Below are positions 39,858 to 59,000 of a stretch of 64,000 nt of DNA, one piece after another (the first letter of the stretch is position 1; each line of letters opens with the position of its first letter). Source of the stretch: an uncultured Candidatus Saccharibacteria bacterium (GTDB lineage Bacteria > Patescibacteriota > Minisyncoccia > Phycocordibacterales > Zambryskibacteraceae). The stretch is from positions 3,934 through 67,933 of the forward strand of contig CAYGIH010000001.1 of NCBI GenBank assembly GCA_964349945.1, given 5' to 3'. Both the position numbers and the translations under genes were made by a program. The notes beneath the pieces were generated by a model. The model searched no databases. It saw nothing but the letters and a program-made list of their open reading frames with translations, and had not been told where the DNA came from.

Positions 39858-39869
39858 GTTGTCCACAAA
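39858..39869 (+). promoter_or_regulatory. Conserved 12-mer GTTGTCCACAAA, 64 nt upstream of the giant gene 1 ATG (39922)
   Basis: The identical 12-mer recurs at 50019-50030, exactly 64 nt upstream of the giant gene 2 start (GTG 50083). Confidence 0.45.
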
Positions 39870-42800: not shown

Positions 42801-45800
42801 AAACTTCGTGGCACTTGGACAGATAAGTAGAAACTGGCAATCAATGGCTGCCGCTCCAAACGGAAATATCTATGCCGGTGTTGGTGGAGGAGATATTTAC
42901 ATGAATGTGGCACAAGGAGGAACAGCTGATTTGGCTGGAGGAAATTTGATTTTGTCTGCTGGGGTGGGTAAGGGAACTGGTGCAAGCAACATCTCATTCT
43001 TGACCGGCACAACGTTGACCTCGGGGACAACACTACAAGCATTGTCTGAAAAGATGACAATTTTAGGTAATGGAAATGTCGGCATAGGCACCACATCACC
43101 AACATACAAACTCTCCGTCGAAGGTTCATCAACTCTTGGTAATCAAGCTATCGCAGGATATTTTACTGCAACATCAACTACAGCCACTTCGACTTTTGCG
43201 GGAGCGGTGGGGATTGGGACGACGAATCCAACACGAGCATTCGAAATTGTTGGCAATGTTGAAAATAATAATACTGGAACAGCTTCACAATTATCAATAC
43301 GTGGAACTGCAAGTACAATAGATAAGTTAAATATTGGATATAACACTACAAGTAATTTTGGTTTTATTGAAGCAGTAAGAGAATCTTCCGTAACTCAGAA
43401 TCTTATTCTCGGACCTGTTGGAGGTAACGTTGGAATTGGAATTACGAATCCCAATTCTAAGCTCGCAGTGAATGGGACTATAGCAATTGCTGCTACAGTA
43501 AGCACAAGCATTCCTCAAACATTAATTTGGTCAAGACAAAGTGATAATTGGACACCAGCATCCATTGGTCAATTATATGATGGTTCAACATATGGAGGGT
43601 ATTTGGTTTTTAATACACACACTTCAAATCTGACTATTGGTGATCAGGCTACTCCACTAGAAAGAATGAGAATTGATAGTTCTGGTAATGTGGGTATAGG
43701 CACCACTTCTCCAGCATACAAACTCTCCGTCGAAGGTTCATCAACTCTCGGCAATCAAGCCATCGCAGGATACTTCACTGCGACTTCTACAACAGCCACT
43801 TCGACGTTTGCAGGAGGAATAACTGGCCCAAATAATTTTATTGTCCAACAAGTAAGCGGGAATGTTGGAATAGGGGTGAACCCAACATCAAATAAACTAG
43901 AAGTAACTGGCGTGACAAAAATAAATGGCACACTTACTGTGGATGGTCAGGGAACATACACGATCATTGGTCAATCAACAGGCTCCAGTCCTGCATGGTT
44001 TCAAACAAAAAATGGGAGTGGTGCATTCAATGAATTCGGTATAGTTGGTTCAAATGGGCAATTTGCAGTTACAACTATTACAGACGACGCGGTATTCAAA
44101 TTTACCGGTAGTAATTTCGTTATTGTTGGAGACAATCAATTAGAAAAATATAGATTTACTTCTTTGGGTAAATTTGGAATTGGAAGTACTTCTCCAACTT
44201 ATCAACTTTCCGTCGAAGGTTCGTCCACTCTTGGTAATCAAGCTATTGCGGGATACTTCACTGCGACTTCGACTACAGCCACATCAACATTTGCGGGAGG
44301 AATTTCTGGACCAAATAATTTTGTGGTTCAACAAGGAAGTGGGAATGTTGGGATTGGTGTGACTAATCCACAAGGAAAACTGGATGTATCTGAAATTCCT
44401 GATTTAGGAAGTGTTTACTTTCGTTCAACTGGTAGACCTTTTATAGATATTAAAGGAGGAGCAAATAGTTATAAAACACTTAGATTTTCTGACGGCGCTG
44501 ATGGTACTTATAAATGGGATGTAAATGTTTTACCTGCAGACGATGGAACATTACCTAATGGTTTTAGAATTAGCAATTCGGGTGGAACTGCTCTCTCTAT
44601 TAATTCAACAAATTATTATGTTGGTTTGGGAGGTATTAATTCTCCTGCTGGTGTACTTGATGTTAATGTTGGAGGTGGTCAAAGTGTATATTTTCGTTCA
44701 GCAGGACGACCATTTGTAGATATTAAAGGAGGAGCTAGTGATTATAAAACACTCCGATTTTCTGAAGGAGCAGATAGTACATATTTGTGGGATGTGAATG
44801 TTGAACCAACAAACAATAATATGGAATTTTGGGGAGGTGGAGGTTTTAGAGTAGCCTTCACTTCTGGGGGTAGTGTTGGTATTGGGACAGCGAATCCAGG
44901 ATATATGCTTGATGTTTCTGGAAGCAATGCAACTAGCCCGATGATTGTGGCTAGAAATGCGGTGAATTCTGGTGATACAAATTGGGGTTCACTAGGTATT
45001 CTAAATGATGCTGCGTATGCAGTGGGGAATAATGCACGTCTTATGTTTTTAGCTCATGATTCTTCTCAAGTCATTCATCCTTACGCAAGTCTTGGTTTAG
45101 AAGTTGAGGGTAATTATATGGGAGCAATAACTTTCAATACTCGAACTGTGGGTGGAGCTACTGGTGAACGAATGAGGATTACAAATGCTGGCAATGTAGG
45201 AATCGGATCAACCACTCCTGCATACAAACTCTCCGTCGAAGGCTCTTCCACACTTGGTAACCAAGCTATCGCAGGATACTTTACTGCCACTTCAACCACA
45301 GCTACTTCAACTTTTTCAGGAGCGGTTGGGATAGGAACGACGAGTCCAAATGCAAAACTTGCGATAACTGGGACAAGTGTTTCTGCGAACAATAAAACAT
45401 TTGTTGTTACCGACAGTTCGAATAATAAACTGTTTACTATACTTGATGACGGGAAAGTTGCCGTTGGCGCAAGAGACCCCTTTTACAACAAGTTCACTAT
45501 TAATCTAGGGGTCAATCAAAATATTGGTTTTGATAATGATGGAGGGGTATCACGTATCCAATTTAGAAATGATGTTAATTCTGGTCATGTGCCTGGAGTT
45601 TTTTCCGCTTCGAGTTTTAGTTTTTTAAGTGGAAATGTCGGAATTAACTTACCATCATTTTCATCTATTCCAAGTAGCCAACTTGATGTCAATGGAAATA
45701 TCGTGAGACAGGTTGATGCCACTGGAGTAGAGACTCGCATAGGCATACATTCAAATGATGGGCCAATCACGGCAACTTTTGGGGGTACATTGATTGGCAC

Positions 45801-48800
45801 AACCGGTGTTACGGATGGTAATGGAAATACATCGAACTACATTGCATTCCACACATACAAATCTGGTGTTAGATCAGGTGAAGTGATGAGAATAGACGAA
45901 AACGGGAATATTGGAATAGGGACGACTAGTCCAATGGCCAACCTTACAATAAATGGTACAACGGGTGCCATCTCGCAATCAGGAACCGCAAGTGGTGGAA
46001 CATTGCGAATCACAGAATATCCAAATTCAGGAGCAATGTTTTTGATTGGAACGAACGGAGGAAATTATGGTTATATTCAATACACGAACAGCGCTGATAA
46101 ATCAGTCGGTTATCCATTGGTCCTAAATCCAACTGCAGGCAACGTCGGAATAGGCACGACCACACCAACAGGGAAATTACACATTGTTTCAAACACAATA
46201 CCTTCACTTGTTGGAAGTGCTGCCGCAGGAATAATTATCACAAGCCAACAAAACTCCGGAACGGAATTAGCTATGGGTGTAGATTTAACTAATTCTCCTT
46301 ATCCAGCATATTTACAGTCCAGACATGCAGGCAATGGAACAGCTTATCCTTTAGCACTTAATCCTCTTGGTGGTAACGTCGGTATTGGGACTACGAATCC
46401 GGGGACGAAGTTAGATATTCAAGGCAACGATACCACGGCATACTCCACATCTTTGGCTGTAAGTCCCTCTGGGTCAGATTTGTTGAGGCTTTACAACATG
46501 TCTAACAGTTCCAACTTCACAGCTATTGAGCTTGGGTCACGTAATAGTGGCGCAGCGATAGGTCGCATCGTGCTCGTAGATGATGGAGGAGCTAATGGTG
46601 ACTTTGCGTTTCAGTTACGAAATGCGAGTGGAGCCAACACAGTGGAAAAAATGAGAATAACAACCACTGGCAACGTGGGTATTGGGACGACGGCACCGTT
46701 TACAAAATTAACCATCAAAGGTACGACATTCGCTGAAATGGATTTGACAAATGGGTCAACTGCTTTATTGGGCAATGATATTCTTGGTAAATATTCATTT
46801 AGGTCAGTTGATGCTGACGCTCATGTTGGTGGAGATCAAACTCTCGGTGGCATGTACGGTATTATTGTTCACGAAGCAGGTGGGACAGGTGTAATAGATG
46901 GTTCTGCAGATGAAGGTATGGAGCTATCCTTTACAACTTCAAAAAGGCCATCACCGAATACTCTTTTCACACTTACAGAGGCAATGAGAATTAATAAACT
47001 CGGTAATGTCGGTATTGGGACGACGACACCCGGGGCGGCTTTTCATTTATATAAATCAAACGCATCGCAGCCCTTTGCGCTATTTGAAGATATTGGGATA
47101 GATAGTAATCCAGCTATCCAAATTAAAAATGACGCTCAAGCATGGAACCTCCATACAGTTGGTGCAAGAAGTAATAATTTTGAAATATTTAATGCTACAG
47201 CAGGTGGCGCAGCAGCTAATGCATATTTGACAGTAACAACCGCAGGCAACGTTGGCATAGGGACAACATCACCAACAACTAAATTAGTAGTAAATGGTGG
47301 AGATATTTCAGTTGTAGATGTGAATCCATCTATAATGTTGAAATCAAGCGCTTCGGGAGAGCATTATGGTTTTTTACAATTCGATCACACAGAAGGAGAT
47401 TTTTTGAGAATGTTTGATGGCACAACTTATTCAATGCATTGGAGAGCTGGCAATGTCGGTATCGGCACCACAACACCAACTGCGGCACTAACTGTAAAAG
47501 ATAATAACCTTAATAAGAATGCTATTGAAATACAATCTAGTGCAGTTTCACCAAATAATTATATTTGGGGTTTGAGTGCACAATCAAATAATTTCTTTTA
47601 TATAAATCAAGGTTCAAACTATGGCACACCTACGACTAGATTAACTATTGATAATAATGGCAACGTCGGTATTGGTGTGACTAATCCTGGGAAACGGTTA
47701 TCAGTAGGTACTACTGGTACTGGAGATATTGGAGTGGGAGGAAGTATTTATATTGGAGAAAATTCTCCTTATGCAGGTGGTGGAAATTTATATTTGGATG
47801 CAACCGGTACGGGAGATAGAGATTTTAATTTAATTCAGTATAATGGTGCATCTTGGGTTACTAATTTATTTGTGAATGGAGGAAACGGCAACGTCGGGAT
47901 TGGAACTACGACCCCGACCAGCCATCTAGATGTCTATGGTTCAGCCATAAGTCAGGCTAACTTCAATTCAATATTTACCAACTTACATACAGGTGCTTCT
48001 GTAGTAAAAATTGAAGCAAGCGCAGATACGACTGTTAATACGTTTTATCACAGACTTCTTGATTTAGATTATAGCGGGGATGCCTCGGGTGTTACTGGAA
48101 CATATATGAGAATGCTTACTGGTGGTACTGAACGTTTTGGTATCGGTCTTTCTAATGATGAATTTGCAATTACTTCCAATGCTGTCGAAGTATTACATAT
48201 AACAACTGCTGGTAACGTCGGCATCGGGACGACGAATCCAAATTCATTACTCGAGCTTAAAGGGAATGGTGCAAGAATGGCAGTGAGAGATGACGGTGTT
48301 TCAACTGATGCTATAAATTTTGGCACAGATACGTCCGGAAATGGTATATTCCAAATGTATGATACAAATGGGGTACAGAGGGTAAATCTTTATTCTCATC
48401 AGACAGAAGGTATTGCAAATTATTGGTTTACAAACGGCAACGTCGGCATCGGGACGACGAGTCCGGGAGCGAAACTTCATTTAACTTCTAGTGTTGCAAA
48501 TGATACCTATTTGTTTTTAGATGCCGCTCATGCAACTGCAGGAACAGCTGGAGGTCTTGTTCAAAGGAGGGCACGGGGTTCGATTTCTTCACCTAGTGCT
48601 GTTTCAAGCGGTGACAGATTAGGATTGTTTGTAGCCCAGGGTTATGGCTCAACAGCATATGGTACTGCTGGAGGAATGACTGTAATAGCAGACGGTACTC
48701 CTTCTGGTGATAATATTCCTGGTCGTGTGGAATTTTGGACTTCAACAGCAAGCCTTCAAGATCAAATTAGAATGACAATAAAAAATGATGGCAACGTAGG

Positions 48801-49788
48801 CATAGGTACTACAAATCCCGGACAACAACTTACCGTCGCTGGTTCAATTGGATTTCTTGGAGTAACCAATGGAGCGGGGACTGCTTATCTCTGTCAGACT
48901 TTGGCGACTGGTGTAGTCTCAACTTCGACTACTGCTTGTAACCCTTCATCTATGAGGTTCAAGGATAATGTTGCAAATATAAATTATGGATTGAATGAAG
49001 TGATTCGTATGAGACCAACAACATTTGATTACAAACCAGAATTACTCGTACCTGGTCACCAAGTTGGATTCATTGCAGAAGATATGGCTGGCATAATCCC
49101 TGAAGTAGTTGGTTATGATTCAAACGGTTTGCCTTCAAACATTGATTATGGGAAGTTGACTCCAGTGTTAGTGAGAGCAATCCAAGAACTTGATTTGAAG
49201 TTTGATTTATTAAATGCTTCTACCACCGCATCGCTCTCACAAATTTCATTGGCTATCCAAGACCAGAGTCTGAAGATAGAAAGTATGCAAGCTGACATAG
49301 CCAACCTCATGAATACTGCTTCAACCACTCTAGCTACTCTCTCTACTCAAGAACAAAGAATTTCTGACATCGAAACATTGATTGCTTCATCAACAATATT
49401 TACAATAGCTACAAGTACAGCAACATCTTCAATAGATACAAATAATGGATTCCTCGCAAATATTATCTCTTGGTTAGGAAGTATGACAAATGGAATAGGG
49501 GACGTGTTCGCGAGTACGTTTAATGCGAAGGATAAAATCTGCGTAGATGGGGAATGTCTAACCAAGGATGATATCAGGGCCATGCTTTTGGTTATACATC
49601 CAGCAACCACAACAACAGATACGGGCACTACCACTCCAACTACAGATGTTGGCTTAACTCCTACTACAATAATAGATACATCCACAACCACCCCTATACT
49701 AGATACAAGTTCAACTACCACCCCTACTATAGACACCACTACGACAACAGTAACAATAGATACAGCCTCAACCACTCCAGTTATATAG
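39898..49788 (+). CDS. Giant (about 3290 aa) type-II membrane-anchored surface protein. It has two cytoplasmic HTH_17-like domains, one TM helix, and a tail-fibre-like GNVGIGTT repeat ectodomain. It also has a 7-blade propeller-like block and a C-terminal peptidase-S74 intramolecular-chaperone domain.
   Basis: Single uninterrupted ORF. The track start is a TTG at 39898, preceded by AGGAGA 7 nt upstream. An alternative start is the ATG at 39922 (MNKDYF...), which aligns with the gene 2 N-terminus. See the domain features below. Confidence 0.85.
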   Translation: MPRFTINLMNKDYFAEEAKYISAKVASKKTGYAQDHIGALVRSGKVIGKKIGRAWFVDLESLENHKNSQSFKSDKKVSPIKKSLERALVSASFASTKVGYAQDHIGALIRTGKVKGKKIGRAWFVDLESLENHKTNIKLKTVLKPTAKILPIASIAPIEPRLSLPHPISQKVIKYEEEVAPKFVEVSKDKYKIKKELLLRELLGGALITSMLIMVVTLASVSGIKQIAKTDTFNKLADGSISAEISQGLNNTSASILATISDGLQNLWNNLFGKKENTVLVVVPPDSLSNKEPTLKPSTSEGSGKTTIINNPPAQTIINEYKSITQVTPLDLTLDDVVNNGDTTRLDVRLLGNVEIGKNLNIKGSIVSGSSVIAKNGSFSSLSTSGDFSAGGEITLGNPEDNFIINSKNVSIDKDGNTTFLGNFFSANASTTNVYAVNSTSTNSYISLLTGDIATITNFTGTNNTLTNLIYTNATGTNSTTTNLFANSGVITNLNTNNLSLGTTSTSANINIVQTSNGSTTIQANRITDAAPAGDFIRYNNAANDTTLFRVDNSGNLYAGGIINSGSQTITSTSQPQFRVQYDASNENTNSISATGVSTFGFNGSTPRAIFTPQLNATNSFTFTDLSSTPIFNIDTLNQIVSAPHFLSTSSTTLQNFTFINATGTSATTTNLYTTLLVAGSATTTNLFSTNGAFTNLLSSYATTTNLYSSGQTILAGTSGNVGIGTTNPTNALSFGNSQNQKIWVENSTNVIAGRALTLSAGSTVNTGLVDFAPLSQANLNWWSMAAAPSGNVYAAAYNNNLYKQTNGTGNFVAQGLNGGLWGVAVAPNGNVYVAKHNDDIYMQTNETGSFVALGQTPSSWGAMAAAPSGNVYALKVYSGAGLYKQTNGTGDFNLVVSGSWNAVAVAPNGNVYLVGSSDIYMQTNETGSFVALGQGAKSWQSVTVAPNGDVYAVVYGGDVYRQTGGTGNFVALGQISRNWQSMAAAPNGNIYAGVGGGDIYMNVAQGGTADLAGGNLILSAGVGKGTGASNISFLTGTTLTSGTTLQALSEKMTILGNGNVGIGTTSPTYKLSVEGSSTLGNQAIAGYFTATSTTATSTFAGAVGIGTTNPTRAFEIVGNVENNNTGTASQLSIRGTASTIDKLNIGYNTTSNFGFIEAVRESSVTQNLILGPVGGNVGIGITNPNSKLAVNGTIAIAATVSTSIPQTLIWSRQSDNWTPASIGQLYDGSTYGGYLVFNTHTSNLTIGDQATPLERMRIDSSGNVGIGTTSPAYKLSVEGSSTLGNQAIAGYFTATSTTATSTFAGGITGPNNFIVQQVSGNVGIGVNPTSNKLEVTGVTKINGTLTVDGQGTYTIIGQSTGSSPAWFQTKNGSGAFNEFGIVGSNGQFAVTTITDDAVFKFTGSNFVIVGDNQLEKYRFTSLGKFGIGSTSPTYQLSVEGSSTLGNQAIAGYFTATSTTATSTFAGGISGPNNFVVQQGSGNVGIGVTNPQGKLDVSEIPDLGSVYFRSTGRPFIDIKGGANSYKTLRFSDGADGTYKWDVNVLPADDGTLPNGFRISNSGGTALSINSTNYYVGLGGINSPAGVLDVNVGGGQSVYFRSAGRPFVDIKGGASDYKTLRFSEGADSTYLWDVNVEPTNNNMEFWGGGGFRVAFTSGGSVGIGTANPGYMLDVSGSNATSPMIVARNAVNSGDTNWGSLGILNDAAYAVGNNARLMFLAHDSSQVIHPYASLGLEVEGNYMGAITFNTRTVGGATGERMRITNAGNVGIGSTTPAYKLSVEGSSTLGNQAIAGYFTATSTTATSTFSGAVGIGTTSPNAKLAITGTSVSANNKTFVVTDSSNNKLFTILDDGKVAVGARDPFYNKFTINLGVNQNIGFDNDGGVSRIQFRNDVNSGHVPGVFSASSFSFLSGNVGINLPSFSSIPSSQLDVNGNIVRQVDATGVETRIGIHSNDGPITATFGGTLIGTTGVTDGNGNTSNYIAFHTYKSGVRSGEVMRIDENGNIGIGTTSPMANLTINGTTGAISQSGTASGGTLRITEYPNSGAMFLIGTNGGNYGYIQYTNSADKSVGYPLVLNPTAGNVGIGTTTPTGKLHIVSNTIPSLVGSAAAGIIITSQQNSGTELAMGVDLTNSPYPAYLQSRHAGNGTAYPLALNPLGGNVGIGTTNPGTKLDIQGNDTTAYSTSLAVSPSGSDLLRLYNMSNSSNFTAIELGSRNSGAAIGRIVLVDDGGANGDFAFQLRNASGANTVEKMRITTTGNVGIGTTAPFTKLTIKGTTFAEMDLTNGSTALLGNDILGKYSFRSVDADAHVGGDQTLGGMYGIIVHEAGGTGVIDGSADEGMELSFTTSKRPSPNTLFTLTEAMRINKLGNVGIGTTTPGAAFHLYKSNASQPFALFEDIGIDSNPAIQIKNDAQAWNLHTVGARSNNFEIFNATAGGAAANAYLTVTTAGNVGIGTTSPTTKLVVNGGDISVVDVNPSIMLKSSASGEHYGFLQFDHTEGDFLRMFDGTTYSMHWRAGNVGIGTTTPTAALTVKDNNLNKNAIEIQSSAVSPNNYIWGLSAQSNNFFYINQGSNYGTPTTRLTIDNNGNVGIGVTNPGKRLSVGTTGTGDIGVGGSIYIGENSPYAGGGNLYLDATGTGDRDFNLIQYNGASWVTNLFVNGGNGNVGIGTTTPTSHLDVYGSAISQANFNSIFTNLHTGASVVKIEASADTTVNTFYHRLLDLDYSGDASGVTGTYMRMLTGGTERFGIGLSNDEFAITSNAVEVLHITTAGNVGIGTTNPNSLLELKGNGARMAVRDDGVSTDAINFGTDTSGNGIFQMYDTNGVQRVNLYSHQTEGIANYWFTNGNVGIGTTSPGAKLHLTSSVANDTYLFLDAAHATAGTAGGLVQRRARGSISSPSAVSSGDRLGLFVAQGYGSTAYGTAGGMTVIADGTPSGDNIPGRVEFWTSTASLQDQIRMTIKNDGNVGIGTTNPGQQLTVAGSIGFLGVTNGAGTAYLCQTLATGVVSTSTTACNPSSMRFKDNVANINYGLNEVIRMRPTTFDYKPELLVPGHQVGFIAEDMAGIIPEVVGYDSNGLPSNIDYGKLTPVLVRAIQELDLKFDLLNASTTASLSQISLAIQDQSLKIESMQADIANLMNTASTTLATLSTQEQRISDIETLIASSTIFTIATSTATSSIDTNNGFLANIISWLGSMTNGIGDVFASTFNAKDKICVDGECLTKDDIRAMLLVIHPATTTTDTGTTTPTTDVGLTPTTIIDTSTTTPILDTSSTTTPTIDTTTTTVTIDTASTTPVI
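39958..40095 (+). other. HTH_17-like domain, repeat 1, of giant protein 1 (cytoplasmic)
   Basis: 'ISAKVASKKTGYAQDHIGALVRSGKVIGKKIGRAWFVDLESLENHK'. This aligns with excisionase/MerR HTH_17 (..G.s..ti..li..G.l...kiGr.W.i...dLe..). Confidence 0.55.
40168..40299 (+). other. HTH_17-like domain, repeat 2, of giant protein 1
   Basis: 'ASFASTKVGYAQDHIGALIRTGKVKGKKIGRAWFVDLESLENHK' is nearly identical to repeat 1. Confidence 0.55.
40364..41136 (+). repeat. 773-bp segment of giant gene 1 that is 100% identical to 50546-51318 in giant gene 2
   Basis: Line-by-line comparison shows it is identical throughout. It covers the juxtamembrane region, the TM helix and the first ~190 aa of the ectodomain. Flanking sequence is only about 85% identical. 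Confidence 0.8.
40501..40569 (+). other. Single transmembrane anchor of giant protein 1 (N-in, C-out predicted)
   Basis: 'LLGGALITSMLIMVVTLASVSGI' is preceded by the basic stretch 'KDKYKIKKELLLRE', following the positive-inside rule. Confidence 0.6.
42241..42909 (+). other. Seven tandem ~40-aa repeats (beta-propeller-like) in giant protein 1
   Basis: The repeats follow the pattern W..[AV]A[AV]APNGNVYA......IY[KM]QTN[GE]TG[NS]FVALGQ, 7 times. Confidence 0.5.
43103..43228 (+). repeat. About 110-bp intragenic module, copy A (encodes ..YKLSVEGSSTLGNQAIAGYFTATSTTATSTFAGAVGIGTT..)
   Basis: Near-identical at the DNA level to copies at 43713, 44197, 45220 (gene 1) and 53044, 53695, 54247 (gene 2). 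Confidence 0.7.
43713..43815 (+). repeat. 110-bp module copy B
   Basis: gcatacaaactctccgtcgaaggttcatcaactctcggcaatcaagccatcgcaggatacttcactgcgacttctacaacagccacttcgacgtttgc. Confidence 0.7.
44197..44300 (+). repeat. 110-bp module copy C
   Basis: acttatcaactttccgtcgaaggttcgtccactcttggtaatcaagctattgcgggatacttcactgcgacttcgactacagccacatcaacatttgc. Confidence 0.65.
45220..45346 (+). repeat. 110-bp module copy D
   Basis: gcatacaaactctccgtcgaaggctcttccacacttggtaaccaagctatcgcaggatactttactgccacttcaaccacagctacttcaactttttc. Confidence 0.65.
48936..49220 (+). other. Peptidase S74 / tail-fibre intramolecular chaperone auto-processing domain at the C-terminus of giant protein 1
   Basis: 'NPSSMRFKDNVANINYGLNEVIRMRPTTFDYKPE...HQVGFIAEDMAGIIPEVV...IDYGKLTPVLVRAIQELD' matches the endosialidase/tail-spike chaperone pattern: a Ser-x4-Lys dyad, GFIAQEv..P.lV, and vDY..L...Li.AiQEL. 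A predicted coiled coil follows (49221-49400), then a Thr-rich tail (49600-49785). Confidence 0.6.
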
Positions 49789-49794
49789 GAGTAA

Positions 49795-49815
49795 GTTTAT
49801 TAAACATTAATAAAC
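49795..49815. promoter_or_regulatory. Perfect palindrome GTTTATTAA-ACA-TTAATAAAC, 7 nt after the giant gene 1 stop and upstream of giant gene 2
   Basis: 9-bp perfect inverted arms around an ACA centre. A degenerate copy lies at 39583-39603, upstream of the small HTH gene. Confidence 0.45.
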
Positions 49816-49829
49816 TAGGATAGAGAAAC

Positions 49830-49947
49830 TAGCTTTTAGCTGTTAAATTATAGCTGCTAGTAGATTCAGCTATTAGCTAAGAGCTTTCAGCTTCTAGCTT
49901 ATGATTCAAATAAGTTCTTAATACCAATAGCTCACAGCTAGTAGCTA
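49830..49947. repeat. AGCT-rich degenerate heptamer tract ([CT]AGCTNN, 7-bp phasing) in the intergenic region between the giant genes
   Basis: About a dozen AGCT tetramers between 49831 and 49987. Runs with exact 7-bp spacing: 49868/75/82/89/96, 49831/38 and 49928/35/42. Confidence 0.5.
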
Positions 49948-50018
49948 GTCAAGAAAGATGACAGTTCGTAGCCAGCACTTAAAAGCTGCACTAAAAATTT
50001 ATATAAATTTTAGTGCTA

Positions 50019-50030
50019 GTTGTCCACAAA
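50019..50030 (+). promoter_or_regulatory. Second copy of the conserved GTTGTCCACAAA box, 64 nt upstream of the giant gene 2 start
   Basis: Same 12-mer and same spacing as at 39858. Confidence 0.45.
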
Positions 50031-50082
50031 GTGATATATATTCTGCTAGGATAATTGTAATTGGAATTCTATAATATATGTT

Positions 50083-53000
50083 GTGAATAAAGAACTTTTT
50101 AGCGAGAACGGAGAATTCATCTCGTCGAGACTTGCCTCAAAAAAAATTGGTTATTCTCATGACCATATTAGTGCTCTCATCCGTTCTGGAAAAGTTAGTG
50201 GAAAGAAAGTTGGCCGTGTTTGGTTGGTAGATTTTCATTCACTAGAAAATTATAAAAAAAGTATTGATTTAAAGAACTTTGAGCCAGGAAAAATAAGTGG
50301 CCAAATGAGATCATACACGTTTAAGACTAAAAATCACTTAGGTAAGAATTTTTTATCTGTAGAGAAGGCTTCTAAGAAAATTGGTTATAGTCAGGACCAT
50401 ATAGGAGCCCTTGTTCGTGGAGGAAAGGTGGCTGGTCAAAAAATTGGGAGAGTGTGGTACGTAGATTTTAGATCTCTCCGTAGGCACAAAAAAAGTCAAA
50501 GAATTATATTTAGGCAGAATGTTCAAAAGCCAACAACGAATGTTCCACCAATTGAACCAAGACTTTCTTTACCCCATCCAATTAGTCAAAAGGTAATTAA
50601 GTATGAAGAAGAAGTCGCTCCAAAATTTGTAGAGGTTTCTAAGGACAAATATAAGATAAAGAAAGAACTACTTCTCAGGGAACTTCTAGGGGGAGCTCTC
50701 ATCACCTCAATGCTCATTATGGTGGTCACCCTTGCTTCTGTCTCTGGTATAAAACAAATAGCTAAAACAGATACATTTAATAAATTGGCCGATGGTTCAA
50801 TCAGTGCAGAAATATCTCAAGGTTTAAACAATACTAGCGCTTCTATCCTAGCTACTATCTCGGATGGATTACAGAATCTTTGGAATAATCTCTTTGGTAA
50901 GAAAGAAAATACTGTTTTGGTAGTGGTGCCACCAGATTCTCTTTCTAATAAAGAACCAACATTAAAACCCTCTACATCAGAAGGTTCAGGTAAGACTACT
51001 ATAATCAATAATCCTCCGGCTCAAACAATCATCAATGAATACAAATCCATCACTCAAGTCACTCCGCTAGATCTAACCTTGGATGATGTGGTAAACAATG
51101 GTGATACAACAAGACTGGATGTACGTTTACTCGGTAATGTAGAAATAGGAAAAAACCTTAATATTAAGGGCAGTATCGTTTCTGGCAGTTCAGTTATAGC
51201 CAAAAATGGCTCTTTTTCTTCGCTTAGCACTAGTGGAGATTTCTCTGCAGGAGGAGAGATAACCCTAGGGAATCCAGAAGATAACTTCATCATTAATTCT
51301 AAGAATGTTTCTATAGATGAAGATGGTAATGCCAACTTTGTTGGTGGGCTGACTGCGACTTTTTTGGATTTGACTGGGCCAACCACTATGGGTGATTTGG
51401 AATTTAATAATGCCACAGGCACTTCTGCTACTACTACAAATCTTGCTACCACTAATTTCACCACTTCTAACCTCAACACGAATAATTTAAGTCTTGGGAC
51501 TACTTCAACTTCTGCCAACATTAATATCACCCAAACTGCCAATGGTTCAACTACTATCCAAGCCAACAGATTCACTGATGCTGCACCAAGTGGAGATTTC
51601 ATCAGATACAACAATGCGGCGAATGACACCACACTCTTTCGAGTAGATAATTCTGGCAACCTTTATGCAGGAGGAATCATTAACTCTGGTTCTCAAACCA
51701 TCACCTCCACCTCTCAACCGCAATTTAGAATTCAATACGATGCATCAAATGAAAACACCACTTCAGTTACCTTAAACGGAGTTACTACATATGGTTTCAA
51801 TGGTACCACCCCTCGAGCTATCTTCACTCCGCAGTCTAACCGCACTGATACCTTTACTTTTACTGATGCATCATCAAATCCAATATTTAATATTGATACG
51901 ACTAATCAACGAGTAGGTATTGGCACTACTTCTCCATTCGCTAAACTTTCAATCAGTAATGCAGTCACAGATACAGTCAACACTCCACTTCTAAATATTT
52001 CTTCAACTACCGGAGGTACATCAACTACTACTTTGTTTACAGTTCTTGCGAGTGGAAATGTGGGTATAGGAACTACGTCGCCAACAAATAAACTTAGTGT
52101 TTCAGGAAACGCCGATATTTCAGGCACTCTTACTGTTTCTGGAAATGCGGCGTTTGGAGGTGGTACGGTTCAAGGCAATGCTGTAGTGTATGCGTCTAAG
52201 ACAATAACATCAGTTTTATCTCAAGCAGGTTTAAGTGGAGTGCTTACTCTTAATCCCAGTGGCAATACAAGTGCGAGTTATCTCGGTGGTCAAGGGGCTC
52301 TTCTTGTTTCAAGTGGAAATGTAAGAAATCTTACAGGTACGATTTTAGGACTACTTGGTGAGGTTCAACATAGTGGTACCGGAATTTTAAGCAATCCAAT
52401 CGGTGTGATTGGTAATGTGATAAATAAATCATCCGGCAACATGACGAATGCTCAGGGGGTTAGATCCAGTATTGATAATAATGGTACTGGAATAATCACC
52501 AATGCTTATGGTACATACGCGATTATAGATAATACGAACACAGGCACAACAACAAATGCTTTTGATTTATTTGCTGCGAACGGAGCAGTTTCCGCAGGAA
52601 GAATTGATAATTATTATGGTCTTTATTTAGAAAATATAACTGCTGGAGCACTGACTAATTATTCGATTTATTCTGCTGGTGGTAATAATTATTTTGGTGG
52701 AAATGTAGGCATAGGGACGACGAATCCTGGGTATAAACTTGATGTTGTTGGAAATGTGGATGGAGCAGTGAATGCATACGGCATGAGAAATCTTAGTGAT
52801 GGTGGCAGTGCCTATAGTATTTTCCAAATGTGGAATAATACAGCCAATACTGCTGGATTTTTCTTTAATTCATCCAATCGTGGTGGAGATGGTGGGCCAA
52901 ATGGATTCTCTTTCTTCAATGATGCTGGGCCAGTAAGATTTAGGGGTAATGGAAATGTGATTTTTGCCACAGGGGCTTATCCGGGTGTAGATAAAATGAT

Positions 53001-56000
53001 TCTTTCTTCTGGGGGTAATTTTGGTATTGCTACTTCTTCTCCTACATATGCTCTCTCCGTCGAAGGTTCATCAACTCTTGGTAATCAAGCTATTGCTGGT
53101 TACTTCACTGCAACTTCTACAACAGCTACGTCTACGTTTGCTGGAGCGGTGGGGATTGGGACGACAACGCCTTCCTCTAAGTTTGCGATCACAGGCTTGG
53201 GAACAGGTATTGGTAGAGCCTTTGTTGTTGCTGATTCTACAAATTCAGAGAAACTTTCAGTTCTTGATAATGGAAGCATTGTTTCAAATGGCCAAATTAC
53301 TTTCCCTAATTCGAATGGTCTCCATTCTGGTTATGGCATAGGGAATAGTGGCGAAAATCGTCTCCAATTTAATGGAGGTCCTAATGGATATGTTTTCAAT
53401 AGTTATAGCAATGGTTCGAATATTTTGAGTATAGATAATACTGGAAATATCGGTGTGCTTGGTTCAAACATTAGTCTGGGTACAGGCAGTGGTTCATATT
53501 CACAAGTTATCTTGAGTACTTCAGGTAGGAATTGGGATTTTGGGGTGGATACTGGTTCAGCTCCTGTTGGGGGGTTCTCTATACGTGATAGAGATAATTC
53601 CTATGCAAAAGTATTTACCTTGGAAGCTGGTGCACCAAATGGTTCATTTTATGTAAAAAATTCTGGCAACGTTGGTATTGGCACTACCTCTCCAACACAC
53701 AAACTCTCCGTTGAAGGTTCATCAACTCTTGGTAATCAAGCCATCGCTGGATATTTTACTGCGACTTCGACTACAGCTACTTCGACTTTCGCTGGAGATG
53801 TGAGAATTGCAAATAATAAAAAATTAGGTTTCCAACCTGTTCAAGGATATGACCATGCGAAATGGAACATGTCTGTTGATACAAATAATGATTTCACATT
53901 TAATGGTGAGGCTGGTAAAAACCTTACCTTTGCTGGTTTTGGTTCACTTGCTGCATGGCCGGAAAATGTAAGCCATCTCATATCTGGAACTGGAGATTTT
54001 CAAATGGATGGTTATACAGGTGGACAGTTGCGTTATCTCGGTGGTGATGCGAATTGGTATTCAGGTGCCGCAAGTGATTATTCGCTCGATGGAAGTTTTG
54101 GTATGAGATTTAGTATTGGTGCATCTGGAAACTCAAATCGAGGATGGACATTTTATGATAATACTTCATCAACGATTGAGGCTGCTATTTCATCTATAGG
54201 AAATGGATACTTTAGAGGAAGTTTGGGTATAGGCACCACAACTCCCGCATACAAACTTTCTGTCGAAGGTTCATCAACTCTCGGCAATCAAGCTATTGCA
54301 GGATATTTCACTGCAACTTCAACTACGGCTACTTCAACATTTGCAGGTGCGGTGGGGATTGGGACGACAACCCCAACTTCAAAAATGAGTATCGTTGGAA
54401 ATGGGTCTTCTGGAATTTTTGGACCATATATGAGCAACGTTTTGAATGTTAGTGGTGCAAATTTAGGTACTACCGCAGGGGATAATTCGCTCATTGCGTC
54501 GTTTGGTGCTGATGTTGGATCAGGTTGGCAAAATGCTTTAGGAATTAGAAGTTATAGATATTCAAATGGAAATGGTTATACTACTGCAGGAATAATGCTT
54601 GGGCTTGATTACAATACTGCGCCGATAATGAGTTATATAGGTTTGAATCAAAACGGCAATATTGGAATAGGAACAATGGACCCTCAAAAAAAATTAACAA
54701 TTGAAGTTGGGGGTGGTATTGATTATCAACTGCGTTTGGGTAAATCAAACGCTTATTATGATATAGGTAGAAATGATGTTGATGGATTACTGTACTTTAC
54801 AGGTAATCAAAGCTTTCCATATGTTGGTTATGTTTTCAATACTGGTAATTTAGGAATAGGCACTACTTCTCCATATCAGAAACTGGCAGTAGTTGGGAAT
54901 GTTTTGGCTGATGCATTTATTGCCACCTCGACTACTGCCACATCAACATTCTCAGGATTTATAGATGTAAATGGCACAGGGACAAATGCTACATCAACCT
55001 TCGCTTCAAACCTTTGGGTCAAGGGAGGATTGAAAGTAGGAACTGGTTCACTTTATCTGAATGATGCAGGTATCACTTCATCAGATGGAAACCTTTCAAT
55101 CCAAAGAAATACTAGTTCATATTTACTTGGTGGAAACGTGGGCATAGGGACAACTACACCAAATAAGAAATTTGTAATTCGAAGCAATAGTGACGCTAGT
55201 TTTTTAAGATTAGAGACTGATGGGACACACGGTGTTAAACCAATTATTTCTTTTGATTCAGGATTATCTGGAATTAATAGAATGGATAAGGCTCAAATTC
55301 AGGGTGGATATGATTCTGTGCAAAGTGGTTCTGGTGGTATTTTAAATTTTTTGACTAAAGATACTTCCGAAGTGTTGCAAAGTAGAATGTATTTAGATGC
55401 AATGGGTAATGTAGGGATAGGAACGACGGGACCGGGGGCACTATTAGATCTCTACAAGTCGGATGCGATCACTGGGGCGGGATTAAGAATTGTGAGTCAA
55501 GATACTGCCGTGGGCAGTCCTCCGTTTTCTACTATAGAATTCAAAACTTCACGGACAGATTCCACCAGCCTTCTACAAGCAGGCAGAATAGTCAGTGGTT
55601 GGGATGGTGCTGGATATGACACTGCGCGTACCACACTTCAATATCCTACAGGAGCTGATGCTTGGACTGATGGACTAACTCTTAAATACGGCAATGTTGG
55701 TATAGGGACAACGAATCCAGGGGCAAAATTGGATATTGGAACAACAGTAGATGGTAGTAAAACATTAGGAATTAATGGAGCAGATACAGCTTGGGATGCT
55801 ATTAGTTTCAATGCAGCATCTGCAGCCAAGAGTTATTCTATTGCGAGACGAGGGTCTGCAGAATATTTTGGTATTCTTAATAATGGTAATTGGCGCCTTG
55901 TTATAGCAGATACTACTGGTAATGTCGGTATAGGGACGACCACTCCTGGTTCTTTGTTGCATGCATATGCTGGTTCTGGTAATCCAGAATTTAGACTTGA

Positions 56001-59000
56001 AACTGCGGGGGCAGGGAACAATCCTTATATAACTCTCAAGGGTGGTTCAAATTATTGGGGTATTCAAGGTACATTTAGTGATTCAAATAAAAATTTACAA
56101 TTTTTATATAATGGTTCAGCTGTAAATGTTGCAATAGATAATACGGGCAAGGTAGGAATCGGAAATGTAAACCCAGGTAAAACACTAGATGTCACAGGTA
56201 CAGGTAGATTCTCTGGAGTACTTACCATCTCAAATACTTCAAACTGTACAGGAAGCCAAGCTCTCCAAACTAATGCCAATGGAGATATAGCTTGTGGCAC
56301 TATCAACACAGGGGGTATCTCATCTGCAGGAGGTTGGACAACAAACAATGTTGGTTTTGTCTCTCTTTCTACCACTACAGATATCGCAGTAGTAGGTGCT
56401 TCCTCTACCCCTTATGCCAAATTTGCCATCATCTCTGGAGCTACAGCTACCACCACTTTAGCCATAGTGCCTTCAGGTTCTCAAACAGCTAACATCATTG
56501 ATATCTACAACACTTCAGGTGCTCTTTCTTCTGTCTTTACAGCAGGAGGAAATTTGGGGATTGGGACGGTGGGACCAACAGAAAAACTTCATGTGGCAGG
56601 AAATATTATTGCAAATTCAGGGAATGCTATCGGTTGGGGAGATAGAACAGCACAAATAGTTGGTGTTACTGGTGGGAGTGGAAGAATAGCTTTCGAGGTG
56701 GCTGGAGCAGAAAAAATGCGGATCGATGGAGCAACAGGCAATGTGGGAATAGGGACGACGACTCCACTGATGCCACTTTCTATAGCAGCAAATTCTGGAG
56801 CATCCGCTGTTCAACTTATTGGTCGTGTTGCGGATAATATTAGTACATTAAATTTTAGTACAAATTCTGGTGCGGTCAGCACTTATATTCAAGGCAATGG
56901 TTCTTGGCTTCGTTCTCAAGCAGATGGAGGAATTCATTTTAGAAATGGTGGGACACCTTCTGTGGCTTCTACTGATTATACGATTGAAGGTATGAATTTG
57001 GGTATAAATTCAACTTCTCCTGGTGAAAAATTGTCAGTAGAGGGTTCTGCGATAGCAAACGAAAATATTGTACGTTTTAATAATCAAGGAAATTATGCTT
57101 CGAGGATATGGTTGAGAAATACTAATCGTTCTGCATATTTTTCTGTTTCTGGTACAACCGCTGACACAATCGCAACAGATATACTCCCTTCAGGTTTGGC
57201 AATTGGTTTGGGGGGTAGTCCGAGCCCGGTTCAATTTTTTAACGGAGCCTCTGCTTCTGTGAAAATGACTATTGCTACTGATGGAAATGTGGGAATTGGG
57301 ACAACGACTCCACAACAAAAACTTGAAGTGGTGAGTGGGAATATCGGTCTTTACAACACTGGTGCTTTGAAATTTTCTCAAACATATGCAACTCCTTACA
57401 TGGACATTGCGATGCCAGATACGGACACTCTTTCTTTTAGAACAAATGTTGGCTCTGCTGATGTAAACGGAACTGCAATGGTTATCAAAAGAACTACAGG
57501 CAACGTTGGTATAGGGACAACAACACCTTCAAACTTACTTGTAGTAAATACCACAACTGCAGGAGCAGTGGGGCGTATTCATGTTCTCGGCGGGCAACCA
57601 TCCAGTGTAGGAGATACTACCTCTGCTTTGGTACTTGGAATGAATGAAGGTGCTGTGGCAAATAATGGGGTTGAGCTCCGTGCTGTCCGTTCAGCATTTT
57701 CATCACCCAATGCAACTGACTTCTCGATCGCTGTCGCTGGTTCTGAACGTGTAAGGGTCGATAAATCAGGTAATGTCGGGATTGGTTCTTCAACTCCAAT
57801 GGATTTGTTGAGTATAGGAAACTCTAACAATGGTTCGACTGATAGAAGAGCTATTAATCTTGGAGCTGGTGGATATGGTGTCCCTGGAAATGCTAACAGT
57901 TCTTCTAATGGGGATAAATTAATTTTGTTCCGCACACCAACTGGTGCGAGTGGCGATATTACTCTTGGTGTTGGAGATATTGGTGATATGTGGTTCAAGG
58001 GCACTGTATTTCGTTGGTATACCCACAATGGAGGGACAGGAGCAAGTTCAGAAAAGATGCGCTTAACACAAGCTGGCAACGTCGGTATAGGCACCACTAA
58101 CCCTGCAGAAAAGTTGCAGGTAGGAGATACTGGTTCAAATGCGATTTATATTCAATCAAGTGGTCAGACGGATACATCAGCATTAAAGTTTAGAAATACT
58201 TATGGTTCTAGTGCTACACGCAATATAAGAATGTCTGGTGATTTGGCAGTGCACATTACAGATGCTGGTGATGTGGAAAAAATGACAATACTGAATAGTG
58301 GGAACGTGGGTATAGGGATTACGAATCCTGGATATGCATTGGATGTTCAAAGGGCCGCCACTTCTGATTGGACAACCAGGATTTATAATACTGGAGTTGG
58401 AAACGGTCTTTTGGTGAGAACTTCTTCAGTAGATATGAACATGGCCCTTGGTGTTTATAATGGCACCTCGTATGTAATGTCAGTATTAAATAATGGCAAC
58501 GTAGGGATAGGGACAACAACACCAATCAATTCTCTCGGTTTTGGAACTGGAAGCACAGGTATTGGATTTTATAGTAGCAACACAACTCTTAATAGTGGGA
58601 AAATAGCAGAAATAGTCCAGAGTGAAGTTGGATCTGGAAATGGTCATCTTTTGTTTAAAACGTACCAAGGTGGTTCTGGTGGAGCAGAACGAATGCGGAT
58701 ACAGAATGATGGTAATGTAGGTATCGGGACGACGACACCGATGTCTGCCTTACATTTAGTTTCTCCAAATACAGCGACTTCTCTTACGATAGGCAATGGT
58801 CAATTCGGCAAAACCCTAGGACTCATTCAAACTTCTGCAGACACTAGTGGTTTTTTAAGAATTCAAAGTGTGCAGTCTAATGGAAGTACATATGGAAATA
58901 TCGTTCTTAATGATGCCGGTGGTAATGTAGGTATCGGGACGACGAATCCTGGGAGAGCTCTGGATGTTGTTGGCACCGCACAAGTAAGAACAGATGAAGG

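What the first reader, a model, noticed from the sequence alone, without database searches (positions are those of the whole stretch)
49789..50082. Intergenic region between the giant genes: perfect palindrome, AGCT heptamer tract and conserved -64 box
Three unusual elements sit in 290 bp:
- 49795-49815 is a perfect palindrome GTTTATTAA-ACA-TTAATAAAC. A degenerate copy lies upstream of the small HTH gene at 39583.
- 49830-49990 holds about 12 AGCT tetramers, where fewer than 1 is expected at this base composition. Many are spaced exactly 7 bp apart in [CT]AGCTNN units.
- GTTGTCCACAAA (50019-50030) is identical to 39858-39869 and lies exactly 64 nt upstream of both giant-gene start codons.
Together these look like a regulatory region with an operator, a repeat array and a promoter-proximal box. 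The AGCT array could be a multimeric protein-binding array or a slipped-strand phase-variation tract. It could also be a methylation (RM) target cluster.
Basis: seen in the sequence. Interest (0 to 1): 0.55.

Follow-up and report, generated by a model that had tools for sequence, protein, structure and literature searches.

The report
AGCT heptad array upstream of giant gene
The 290-bp spacer between two giant surface-protein genes of an uncultured Minisyncoccia (CPR) bacterium is a duplicated copy of the genes' upstream control region. It carries a real, evolutionarily conserved track of AGCT motifs spaced 7 bp apart, which most likely docks an oligomerising DNA-binding protein, although its function is untested.

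Summary
All three observations are real. There are 12 AGCT in 157 bp (0.54 expected; at most 3 per 160 bp elsewhere), and 7 of 11 spacings are exactly 7 bp. There is a perfect 9-3-9 palindrome, and a 12-mer shared with the first giant gene's upstream region.

Comparison with three related Minisyncoccia lineages shows the spacer is a paralogous copy of the giant-gene 5' region. Both ends are conserved: the palindrome at one end, and an AT-rich inverted repeat, the box GTTGTCC[A/C]CAAA and TAGGA-N6-start at the other. The central cassette is exchangeable.

A homologous AGCT array sits upstream of the first giant gene in a species about 81% identical in housekeeping genes. There, AGCT cores are 50/54 conserved against 77/111 for other positions. 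In the 5-heptad block, cores are 20/20 and spacers 9/15.

- **Best reading:** a cis-regulatory array that binds a cooperative protein, analogous to omega heptads, MetJ boxes or BldC repeats. This is an inference.
- **Slipped-strand phase variation:** not supported. There are no identical units and TRF finds nothing.
- **AGCT restriction-modification target cluster:** not supported. AGCT observed/expected is 1.00 and the window holds no DNA methyltransferase.
- **The "-64" coincidence:** explained by paralogy.
- **Side result:** AGCT-N3 arrays with variable spacers are 5-15 times commoner than control cores in viral contigs.

The parts
49795..49815 (.). IR1: perfect 9-3-9 palindrome GTTTATTAA-ACA-TTAATAAAC, 7 nt after the stop codon of giant gene 1. 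It is a paralogue of the operator-like inverted repeat next to the small MerR-type gene.
   Evidence: It is not terminator-like: the stem has no G+C and no T run follows.
49831..49987 (.). AGCT heptad array with 12 cores in three registers: block A at 49831/38/52, block B at 49868-49899 (5 contiguous AGCTNNN units), block C at 49929-49946 (3 units), plus a lone core at 49984.
   Evidence: It is homologous to the array in L203/L204, with cores conserved and spacers not. No ORF of 20 aa or more crosses it.
49988..50016 (.). IR2: AT-rich inverted repeat GCACTAAAAATT / AAATTTTAGTGC immediately upstream of the box.
   Evidence: Counterparts lie at the same place in window U1 (39816-39842) and in L203 (1274-1303). 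The outer arm bases differ between the window and L203, with 6 compensatory pairs.
50019..50030 (+). Conserved box GTTGTCCACAAA. blastn homology between the two giant-gene regions starts here.
   Evidence: It is 12/12 in window U1, window U2 and L203, and 11/12 in L198/L219. Related TATCCCCACAA is in L122 and TTATCCACA in L232.
50047..50052 (+). TAGGAT, the counterpart of TAGGAG or TAGGTA that lies 6 nt before the ancestral TTG/ATG start in the other copies. It is either a Shine-Dalgarno sequence or the -10 of a leaderless promoter. In this copy no start codon follows it.
50083..64000 (+). Giant gene 2. Its first usable start is GTG 50083, and the reading frame is open to the end of the window. 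The N-terminus has two HTH_17-like domains followed by a membrane segment.
39898..49788 (+). Giant gene 1 (3296 aa from TTG 39898). It has the same N-terminal architecture and a C-terminal Peptidase_S74 chaperone domain.
39582..39602 (.). IR1 counterpart in U1, GTTTAATAAACATTAATAATC. It lies inside an 85-nt stretch that is about 97% identical to L203, 7 nt from the start of the small gene and downstream of a sigma-70-like TTGCTA-N17-TAAAAT on the minus strand.
39816..39869 (+). U1 counterparts of IR2 (39816-39842) and of the box (39858-39869).
39335..39574 (-). Small stand-alone MerR/HTH_17 winged-helix gene (79 aa), divergent from giant gene 1. It is the candidate binder of IR1.
   Evidence: The synteny is conserved in L122, L198-L204 and L219.

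Best explanation
The spacer at 49789-50082 is the paralogous, tandem-duplicated copy of the giant-gene upstream control region of a Minisyncoccia (CPR) bacterium.

It is built from four modules:
- IR1, a 9-3-9 palindrome. In the original copy it lies in the leader/operator position of the divergent small MerR-type gene, so it is probably that protein's dimer site.
- An exchangeable central cassette, which here is an array of 12 AGCT cores phased at 7 bp.
- IR2, an AT-rich inverted repeat.
- The box GTTGTCCACAAA, followed 16 nt later by TAGGA(G/T) and, 6 nt after that, the ancestral start.

The AGCT array is most likely a DNA-level docking track. Each heptad would offer one AGCT core to a subunit of a cooperatively oligomerising DNA-binding protein, wrapping the DNA upstream of the core promoter and tuning transcription of the downstream giant surface-protein gene, and possibly of the divergent small gene in the sister species.

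Shown:
- paralogy of the two upstream regions;
- conservation of each module;
- purifying constraint on the AGCT cores and on the 7-bp register.

Inferred:
- that a protein binds the array;
- which protein it is;
- the direction of the regulatory effect.
For: Enrichment and phasing are far beyond chance.

A homologous array lies in L203/L204, upstream of the first giant gene, in a species only about 81.5% identical in housekeeping genes.
- In the ungapped 5-heptad block, cores are 20/20 identical and spacers 9/15 (Fisher p = 0.003).
- Over the whole array, core columns are 50/54 identical against 77/111 for non-core columns (p = 7e-4).
- In L203, nine cores keep one 7-bp register over 95 bp, with spacings 14, 14, 7, 28, 7, 7, 7, 7.

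The units are not identical and no ORF crosses the array. A core with free spacers is the signature of a recognition motif, not of slippage.

The flanking modules are conserved in position and sequence across three lineages and both paralogues. The array therefore sits in a region that is otherwise under regulatory constraint.

There are precedents for short-unit arrays bound cooperatively:
- omega/ParB of pSM19035 binds 7-10 contiguous 7-bp heptads overlapping promoters, one dimer per heptad (PMC9499535);
- BldC, a small effector-less MerR-like winged helix, binds variable numbers of 9-bp direct repeats head-to-tail (PMC5859096).

A stand-alone 79-aa MerR/HTH_17 protein is encoded next to the locus, and the giant proteins themselves begin with two HTH_17 domains.

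AGCT-N3 arrays with variable spacers recur in viral contigs. At least 44 loci carry them, against 7, 9 and 3 for GATC, TGCA and GTAC cores, and 81% lie outside ORFs. They use the same commonest units (GAA, AGA, AAA, AAT) as this array read on the minus strand.
Against: - No binding protein is identified. No ribbon-helix-helix protein is seen in the window.
- The array is dispensable for a giant gene as such. It is absent upstream of gene 1 in this genome and in the L198/L219 lineage and in L122.
- Only two lineages carry the array and the two arrays are homologous, so the conservation test rests on a single comparison.
- The aligner favours matching AGCT to AGCT. The ungapped 5-heptad block is free of that bias.
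- The window array is split into three registers with gaps of 16, 33 and 41 bp, unlike the strictly contiguous omega sites.
- No transcription start is known, so the position relative to the promoter is inferred.
Confidence: 0.45

Rival explanations
1. The tract is a decayed heptanucleotide simple-sequence repeat. It arose by polymerase slippage and is now neutral, or acts at most as a former contingency locus. Heptamers are the commonest class of long SSRs in prokaryotes.
For: - Heptanucleotide repeats are reported as the most abundant long-SSR class in most prokaryotic genomes (Mrazek 2007, as summarised in PMC4679880).
- Heptad arrays of any palindromic core are common in viral contigs: 43 to 120 or more loci per core.
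- Other CPR loci fetched here carry period-7 arrays.
- The array is present or absent among paralogues and species.
- It lies upstream of a surface-protein gene, the classical place for contingency repeats.
Against: - TRF finds no tandem repeat, and the longest run of identical units is two.
- Random decay should hit cores and spacers alike, but cores are 20/20 against spacers 9/15 in the aligned block, and 50/54 against 77/111 overall.
- The array is 100% identical in two independent metagenomes.
Confidence: 0.2
2. The element acts as RNA. The AGCU repeats would lie in a long leader, an intercistronic RNA or an antisense RNA. They would form a structured element, or a landing pad for an RNA-binding protein, as proposed for TAACTGA heptamer repeats.
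For: - The plus-strand RNA folds better than shuffles (z = -2.95).
- A consensus fold exists for the window and L203 arrays.
- Many viral AGCT arrays fill short spacers right before a ribosome-binding site and ATG.
- TAACTGA repeats just upstream of start codons were proposed to bind S1, Csp or CsrA-like proteins (PMC4679880).
- Read on the minus strand, the box is a -35-like TGGACA with TAAAAT 16 nt on in U1 (10/12). Such a promoter would transcribe the cassette in the purine-rich sense, the sense seen in phages.
Against: - AGCU is self-complementary, so any AGCU array folds well. The core pairs cannot covary, and the fold signal is therefore uninformative.
- The array ends 96 nt before the start codon, not a few nucleotides before it.
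- In L203 it lies between divergent genes, upstream of both putative core promoters.
- The minus-strand promoter is not conserved in L203 or L198.
- There is no Rfam match.
Confidence: 0.15
3. The tract is a cluster of methylation targets. An AGCT-specific (AluI-type) methyltransferase would modify the cores, and methylation would compete with a regulator to give an epigenetic ON/OFF switch of the giant adhesin gene. This is the logic of Dam-GATC sites at pap or agn43. Alternatively the sites are plain restriction-modification targets.
For: - AGCT is a 4-bp palindrome typical of restriction-modification specificities.
- The cluster lies in the control region of a surface-protein gene.
- The cores are conserved.
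- The pap/agn43 analogy is from general knowledge, not tested here.
Against: - AGCT is not avoided in the window: observed/expected is 1.00, while GATC is 0.49. There is thus no sign of an AGCT restriction system.
- No DNA methyltransferase or restriction-enzyme family appears in any window ORF.
- Methylation alone does not explain the strict 7-bp register.
- The rest of the genome could not be examined.
Confidence: 0.08
4. The tract is a recombination-promoting sequence that drives exchange (gene conversion) between the tandem giant-gene paralogues and their upstream cassettes.
For: - The upstream regions are mosaics. The coding 5' end of L203 is closest to gene 1 (81.5%), but its cassette aligns only to the gene 2 spacer.
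- The two paralogues share a roughly 980-nt block at 92% identity inside otherwise 72-75% identical 5' regions.
Against: - No recombinase or nuclease is encoded nearby.
- I know of no recombination system that uses AGCT heptads.
- The mosaicism needs only homologous recombination at the conserved ends.
Confidence: 0.05

Closest known systems
Omega (RHH ParB) heptad operator/centromere arrays of Inc18 plasmid pSM19035
   Same: Arrays of 7-bp units overlap or precede promoters. One short recognition core per heptad is read cooperatively, and four or more contiguous units are needed for full activity (PMC9499535). Here there are 5 contiguous heptads plus further in-register units.
   Different: The omega consensus is WATCACW, non-palindromic and strictly contiguous for 7-10 copies. 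Here the core is the palindrome AGCT with free spacers, and the array is split into registers. No RHH gene was found, and the setting is a chromosomal CPR locus, not a plasmid partition or copy-control module.
BldC-type small MerR-like winged-helix regulators on direct-repeat arrays (Streptomyces)
   Same: The locus encodes a stand-alone MerR-type wHTH of 79 aa without an effector domain. BldC binds variable numbers of short direct repeats head-to-tail and distorts the DNA (PMC5859096).
   Different: BldC units are 9 bp with consensus AATTNNNN(C), not 7 bp with AGCT. The sequence relation to BldC was not shown. The small protein is better matched to the 9-3-9 palindrome IR1 than to the array.
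MetJ met-box arrays (general knowledge, not checked here)
   Same: These are tandem arrays of a short palindromic unit, each bound by one dimer with cooperativity between neighbours.
   Different: The met-box unit is 8 bp (AGACGTCT) with 2-5 copies, bound by an RHH repressor with a corepressor. No homologue was identified here.
Intergenic heptamer direct repeats (TAACTGA repeats of Beggiatoaceae/Cyanobacteria; heptanucleotide long SSRs)
   Same: These are period-7 arrays in intergenic DNA of unknown function. They are sporadically distributed and often lie near gene starts (PMC4679880).
   Different: Those are identical units, mostly within a few nucleotides of the start codon. Here only a 4-bp core is kept, the spacers vary, and the array lies 96-250 nt upstream of the start.
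Dam-GATC epigenetic switches at pap/agn43 (general knowledge)
   Same: Clustered 4-bp palindromic methylation targets lie in the control region of a large surface adhesin gene.
   Different: Those switches use 2-3 sites inside a regulator's footprint with no 7-bp register. Here no methyltransferase is known and AGCT shows no methylation-linked or restriction-linked skew.

Membership tests
Omega/RHH heptad operator arrays | Contiguous 7-bp repeat units, at least 4 in a row | tested here: met
   5 contiguous AGCTNNN units at 49868-49899 and 3 at 49929-49946. 5 contiguous units in L203.
Omega/RHH heptad operator arrays | Heptad consensus WATCACW | tested here: not met
   The units are AGCT plus a variable 3-nt spacer.
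Omega/RHH heptad operator arrays | Cognate ribbon-helix-helix protein encoded at the locus | tested here: inconclusive
   No RHH family was found among window ORFs scanned with Pfam. The small intergenic ORFs listed were not scanned and show only an ArsR-like candidate by eye. The rest of the 381-kb contig is not available.
BldC-type MerR-like regulator with direct-repeat array | Small MerR-type wHTH lacking effector-binding domain | tested here: met
   The 79-aa protein matches MerR (E = 8e-11), MerR_1 and HTH_17 over residues 5-54 only. The best PDB relatives are MerR-type DNA-binding domains and a phage excisionase, all weak.
BldC-type MerR-like regulator with direct-repeat array | 9-bp direct repeats AATTNNNN(C) | tested here: not met
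   The period is 7 bp and the core is AGCT. The BldC unit is from PMC5859096.
BldC-type MerR-like regulator with direct-repeat array | Head-to-tail oligomerisation on the array | not testable with these tools
   This needs EMSA, footprinting or a structure.
Slipped-strand (SSR) phase-variation tract | Run of identical tandem units | tested here: not met
   TRF finds nothing at a minimum score of 30. The spacers of the 5-heptad block are ATT, AAG, TTC, TCT, TAT.
Slipped-strand (SSR) phase-variation tract | Unit-number polymorphism between strains or reads | tested here: inconclusive
   L203 (ENA) and L204 (JGI) are 100% identical over 1713 bp including the array, but they may be one strain. No second copy of the window's own spacer could be retrieved.
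Restriction-modification / methylation target cluster | Genome-wide avoidance of the target word (restriction pressure) | tested here: not met
   AGCT observed/expected is 1.00 and dinucleotide shuffles give 216 against 215 observed. GATC is 0.49.
Restriction-modification / methylation target cluster | Cognate AGCT methyltransferase in the genome | tested here: inconclusive
   There is none in the 64-kb window. The only methyltransferases are generic SAM-dependent ones in a glycan cluster.
TAACTGA-type intergenic heptamer repeats | Identical heptamer direct repeats within a few nt upstream of a start codon | tested here: not met
   The units are not identical. The last core ends 96 nt before GTG 50083. 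Family features are from PMC4679880.
DnaA box (for the 12-mer) | Match to TTATCCACA conserved among relatives | tested here: inconclusive
   The window has TTGTCCACA (8/9), L198/L219 have TTGTCCCCA (7/9), and L232 has a perfect TTATCCACA at the analogous place. There is no dnaA/oriC context.
Intrinsic terminator (for the palindrome) | G+C-rich stem followed by a T run | tested here: not met
   No terminator-like site lies in 49500-50400. The stem is nearly all A-T and is followed by TAGGATAGAG.

The most novel reading that the evidence does not exclude
AGCT-N3 heptad arrays are an undescribed, widespread class of cis-element shared by CPR bacteria and many phages. Their defining features would be a palindromic AGCT core under purifying selection, free 3-nt spacers (purine-rich on one strand) and a 7-bp register. 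They would be read by a still unknown oligomerising DNA-binding protein or RNA-binding protein. In this Minisyncoccia lineage the array would be a swappable cassette that decides which of the tandem giant surface-fibre paralogues is expressed, possibly through the cytoplasmic tandem HTH_17 domains that the membrane-anchored giant proteins carry themselves.
Probability: 0.2. Interest if true: 0.75.

Novelty: new variant of a known kind. Interest (0 to 1): 0.45.

Why it matters
CPR/Patescibacteria are mostly uncultured episymbionts. Their giant surface proteins are the presumed tools for attaching to hosts, and almost nothing is known about how their genes are controlled.

This locus offers a compact and testable regulatory architecture: a palindrome, a heptad array, an AT-rich inverted repeat and a conserved box. 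There is comparative evidence that each part is constrained, and the central cassette is exchanged between paralogues and species.

If the AGCT heptads are a protein track, they would extend the omega, MetJ and BldC style of cooperative short-repeat recognition to a new motif and a new phylum. They would also explain the many AGCT-N3 arrays seen in phage intergenic regions.

Tried and rejected
- **Known RNAs:** Rfam at gathering thresholds on the whole window and at permissive E-values on 49700-50200 gave nothing. The only hit was a chance-level CRISPR-DR match at E = 0.54. There are no tRNA or tmRNA genes.
- **Tandem repeats:** TRF found none.
- **Promoters and terminators:** the sigma-70/terminator scan of the spacer gave nothing above shuffles.
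- **Coding explanation:** no ORF of 20 aa or more crosses the array.
- **Retrieving other copies of the inter-paralogue spacer:**
  - Exact look-ups of giant gene 1 with two different starts, and of the 38-aa ORF, found nothing.
  - Every related contig breaks inside giant gene 1.
  - The first genome scan, with a single sequence as query, found nothing.
  - The C-terminal homologue search returned only distant Peptidase_S74 proteins. Their contigs (L231, L232) have no array.
  - Fourteen metagenome relatives and twelve genome relatives of the N-terminal domain have no AGCT array. L219 is the L198 type.
- **DnaA-box reading of the 12-mer:** considered and left open, not adopted.
- **RNA stem enclosing the start codon:** GCCGAGAT/ATCTCGGC in gene 1 and GAATTCT/AGAATTC in gene 2. 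Alifold prefers a local hairpin and the covariation is weak, so I did not pursue it.
- **Box as the -35 of a minus-strand promoter:** good in U1 (10/12) but not conserved in relatives.

Full report
**Observation**

The tract at 49831-49987 holds 12 AGCT. AGCT is not unusual in the window as a whole: 215 observed against 216 in dinucleotide shuffles. The local expectation is therefore 0.54 per 160 bp, and no other 160-bp stretch has more than 3.

The spacings are 7, 14, 16, 7, 7, 7, 7, 33, 7, 7, 41. None of 200,000 random placements of 12 cores in 157 bp gave 7 or more spacings of exactly 7. The units are AGCTTTT AGCTGTT (gap) AGCTGCT / AGCTATT AGCTAAG AGCTTTC AGCTTCT AGCTTAT / AGCTCAC AGCTAGT AGCTAGT, so they share a fixed 4-bp core and variable 3-nt spacers.

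The palindrome at 49795-49815 is perfect. Its only relative in the window is 39582-39602. The 12-mer occurs exactly twice, each time 64 nt before ATG 39922 or GTG 50083. All three observations are confirmed.

**Context**

The window comes from a Minisyncoccia (Patescibacteria/CPR) genome. It holds a glycan-synthesis cluster, SecA, DsbB, MYG1, Obg and GatB. Then comes a 79-aa MerR/HTH_17 gene on the minus strand, followed by two tandem giant genes.

The giant proteins start with two HTH_17-like domains and a membrane segment. Gene 1 ends with a Peptidase_S74 chaperone domain. The two genes are paralogues. blastn homology between them begins exactly at the 12-mer (39857/50018), and further in there is a roughly 980-nt block at 92% identity.

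**The spacer is a duplicated upstream region**

Aligning the gene 1 upstream region (U1, 39575-39921) with the spacer (U2) shows homology at both ends. One end is the palindrome. The other is the box, then 16 nt, then TAGGAG/TAGGAT, then 30 nt to the ATG/GTG, with no net indel. That explains the identical "-64" distance.

In gene 1 the TAGGAG lies 6 nt before an in-frame TTG (39898, MPRFTINLMNKDYF). In the more distant relative L122 the same extension starts with ATG. The ancestral start is therefore probably 40 nt, not 64 nt, from the box.

In gene 2 that start is lost (AAT). A stop at 50047 closes the frame upstream, so GTG 50083 is the first usable start and it has no Shine-Dalgarno sequence.

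**Relatives**

The small MerR-type protein led to syntenic contigs of three further lineages:
- type B: L198-L202 and L219;
- type C: L203 and L204;
- type D: L122.

All contigs break inside giant gene 1, so no second inter-paralogue spacer could be obtained. Housekeeping genes of types B and C are about 80-82% identical to the window.

Against that background several elements are strongly conserved:
- The first 85 nt of U1 next to the small gene are about 97% identical between the window and type C. They contain the palindrome, 7 nt from the start codon and downstream of a sigma-70-like TTGCTA-N17-TAAAAT.
- The box is 12/12 in type C and 11/12 in type B, while its flanks diverge.
- An AT-rich inverted repeat sits directly upstream of the box in U1, in U2 and in type C. 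Its outer arm bases have changed in a compensatory way between U2 and type C.

These are discrete constrained elements.

**The AGCT array in a sister species**

Type C carries 11 AGCT in 160 bp between the palindrome and the box of its first giant gene. The window's U1 and type B have none or only scattered AGCT. This array aligns with the window's U2 array.

- In the ungapped 5-heptad block all 20 core positions are identical but only 9 of 15 spacer positions are (Fisher p = 0.003).
- Over the whole array, core columns are 50/54 identical against 77/111 for the rest (p = 7e-4).
- In type C nine cores keep a single 7-bp register over 95 bp.

The coding 5' end of type C is closest to gene 1, yet its cassette matches only U2. 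The upstream regions are therefore mosaics with exchangeable centres.

The constraint on AGCT and on the register argues for a recognised motif. It argues against a decaying microsatellite.

- **Phase variation by slippage** needs identical units. TRF finds none. The type C array is identical in two independent metagenomes, although these may be one strain.
- **A restriction target** should be avoided genome-wide. AGCT has observed/expected 1.00, whereas GATC has 0.49. No DNA methyltransferase or restriction enzyme is encoded in the window. An orphan AGCT methylase elsewhere in the genome cannot be excluded.
- **RNA.** The plus strand folds better than shuffles. However, AGCU is self-complementary, so this is expected and uninformative. 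There is no Rfam match, and in type C the array lies between divergent genes.

**Wider occurrence**

Control cores of the same composition gave 75 (GATC), 70 (TGCA) and 43 (GTAC) loci. Heptad repeats in general are therefore common, as reported for prokaryotic long SSRs (PMC4679880).

Arrays with three or more different spacers among four are a different matter. There are at least 44 for AGCT against 7, 9 and 3 for the controls. The AGCT arrays lie outside ORFs of 100 aa or more in 81% of cases, against 24% for random positions. When the arrays are oriented, the spacers are purine-rich, and the commonest are GAA, AGA, AAA and AAT. These are the same units as in this array when it is read on the minus strand.

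The window's array thus looks like a member of a broader, undescribed motif class. Other CPR loci fetched here also hold period-7 arrays of a fixed core with variable spacers in intergenic spacers.

**Mechanism**

The best-supported reading is a DNA-level array bound cooperatively by a small oligomerising protein, placed upstream of the core promoter elements (IR2 and the box). Precedents are:
- omega/ParB of pSM19035, with one dimer per 7-bp heptad, 7-10 heptads, overlapping promoters;
- BldC, a small MerR-like wHTH that binds variable numbers of 9-bp direct repeats head-to-tail;
- MetJ boxes (general knowledge).

Three heptads span two helical turns, so such a filament would wind around the DNA. 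IR1, a 9-3-9 palindrome in the leader/operator position of the small MerR-type gene, is the natural site for a dimer of that protein. Its perfect copy in U2, without the neighbouring 85-nt region, suggests it is kept as a separate site.

Whether the box is a -35-like element (TTGTCC/TCCACA), an operator or a minus-strand -35 (TGGACA) cannot be decided without transcription-start data. Protein binding, the identity of the binder and the regulatory outcome are all inferences.

**Verdict**

The region is a duplicated regulatory region, and the AGCT heptad array is under constraint, but its function is unproven. It is a new variant of the known theme of short-repeat operator arrays. Interest is moderate, and would be higher if the phage and CPR arrays prove to be one system.

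Noticed in passing
window 39898-40617 and 50083-50802: Both giant surface proteins begin with two tandem HTH_17 (excisionase/MerR-like) domains followed by a membrane segment. They would therefore be membrane-anchored proteins of more than 3000 aa with a cytoplasmic DNA-binding-type N-terminus. The architecture is conserved in relatives L198, L199, L203 and L122.
   Followed up: partly
viral loci L002-L121 (AGCT) against L123-L197, L233-L344 (controls): AGCT-N3 heptad arrays with variable spacers occur in at least 44 viral contigs, against 3-9 for GATC, TGCA and GTAC cores. 81% lie outside ORFs. They often fill the spacer just before an RBS and ATG, or abut TTGACA-N17-TAGGAT promoters. Some contigs (for example L039 and L105) carry many arrays flanking GC-rich hairpins.
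   Followed up: partly
window 50047-50085: Giant gene 2 has lost the ancestral TTG start (now AAT at 50059) that follows TAGGA-N6 in all other copies. An in-frame TAG at 50047 closes the frame upstream. The first usable start is GTG 50083, which has no Shine-Dalgarno sequence. Expression of the second paralogue may therefore be weak or unusual.
   Followed up: partly
window, whole: GATC is strongly under-represented (94 observed against 192 expected, observed/expected 0.49). CATG (0.68) and CGCG (0.53) are also low. This suggests restriction pressure on those words, but not on AGCT.
   Followed up: no
window 39900-39966 and 50064-50118; L122 964-1029 and 675-740: Inverted repeats bracket the start-codon region of the giant genes. 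In gene 1 and in L122 they are GCCGAGAT...ATCTCGGC, and in gene 2 they are GAATTCT...AGAATTC. L122 also has an extra pseudo-copy of the gene's 5' end, with the same inverted repeat, inside its intergenic region. This may be a translation-control stem, but the covariation evidence is weak.
   Followed up: partly
L203 1440-1466 (minus strand): A perfect 11-bp-stem hairpin, CTCTTACTTGT-gtata-ACAAGTAAGAG, lies directly before the AGCT array of the sister species. It is absent from the window's spacer.
   Followed up: no
window 32293-32301; L232 2564-2572: A perfect DnaA-box-like TTATCCACA lies in the intergenic region upstream of secA. A perfect TTATCCACA also stands where the box would be, upstream of the giant-gene homologue, in a distant 50% GC relative (L232). 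One-mismatch DnaA-box matches are enriched in the window: 37 against 22.5 expected.
   Followed up: no
window 26487-26774 (+): An unlisted 95-aa ORF in the 640-bp gap before the LCAT-like gene looks like an ArsR-type winged-helix regulator by eye. It is one of only three kinds of DNA-binding candidate in the window.
   Followed up: no
L207 943-974; L218 2073-2245, 4068-4092, 7512-7536; L230 2159-2183: Other Patescibacteria loci carry period-7 arrays of a 4-nt core with variable spacers in intergenic spacers. Examples are AAAG x5 ending 1 nt before an ATG, and AACT, TTCT and AATT x4. Period 7 dominates over periods 6 and 8-11 in about 330 kb scanned.
   Followed up: no
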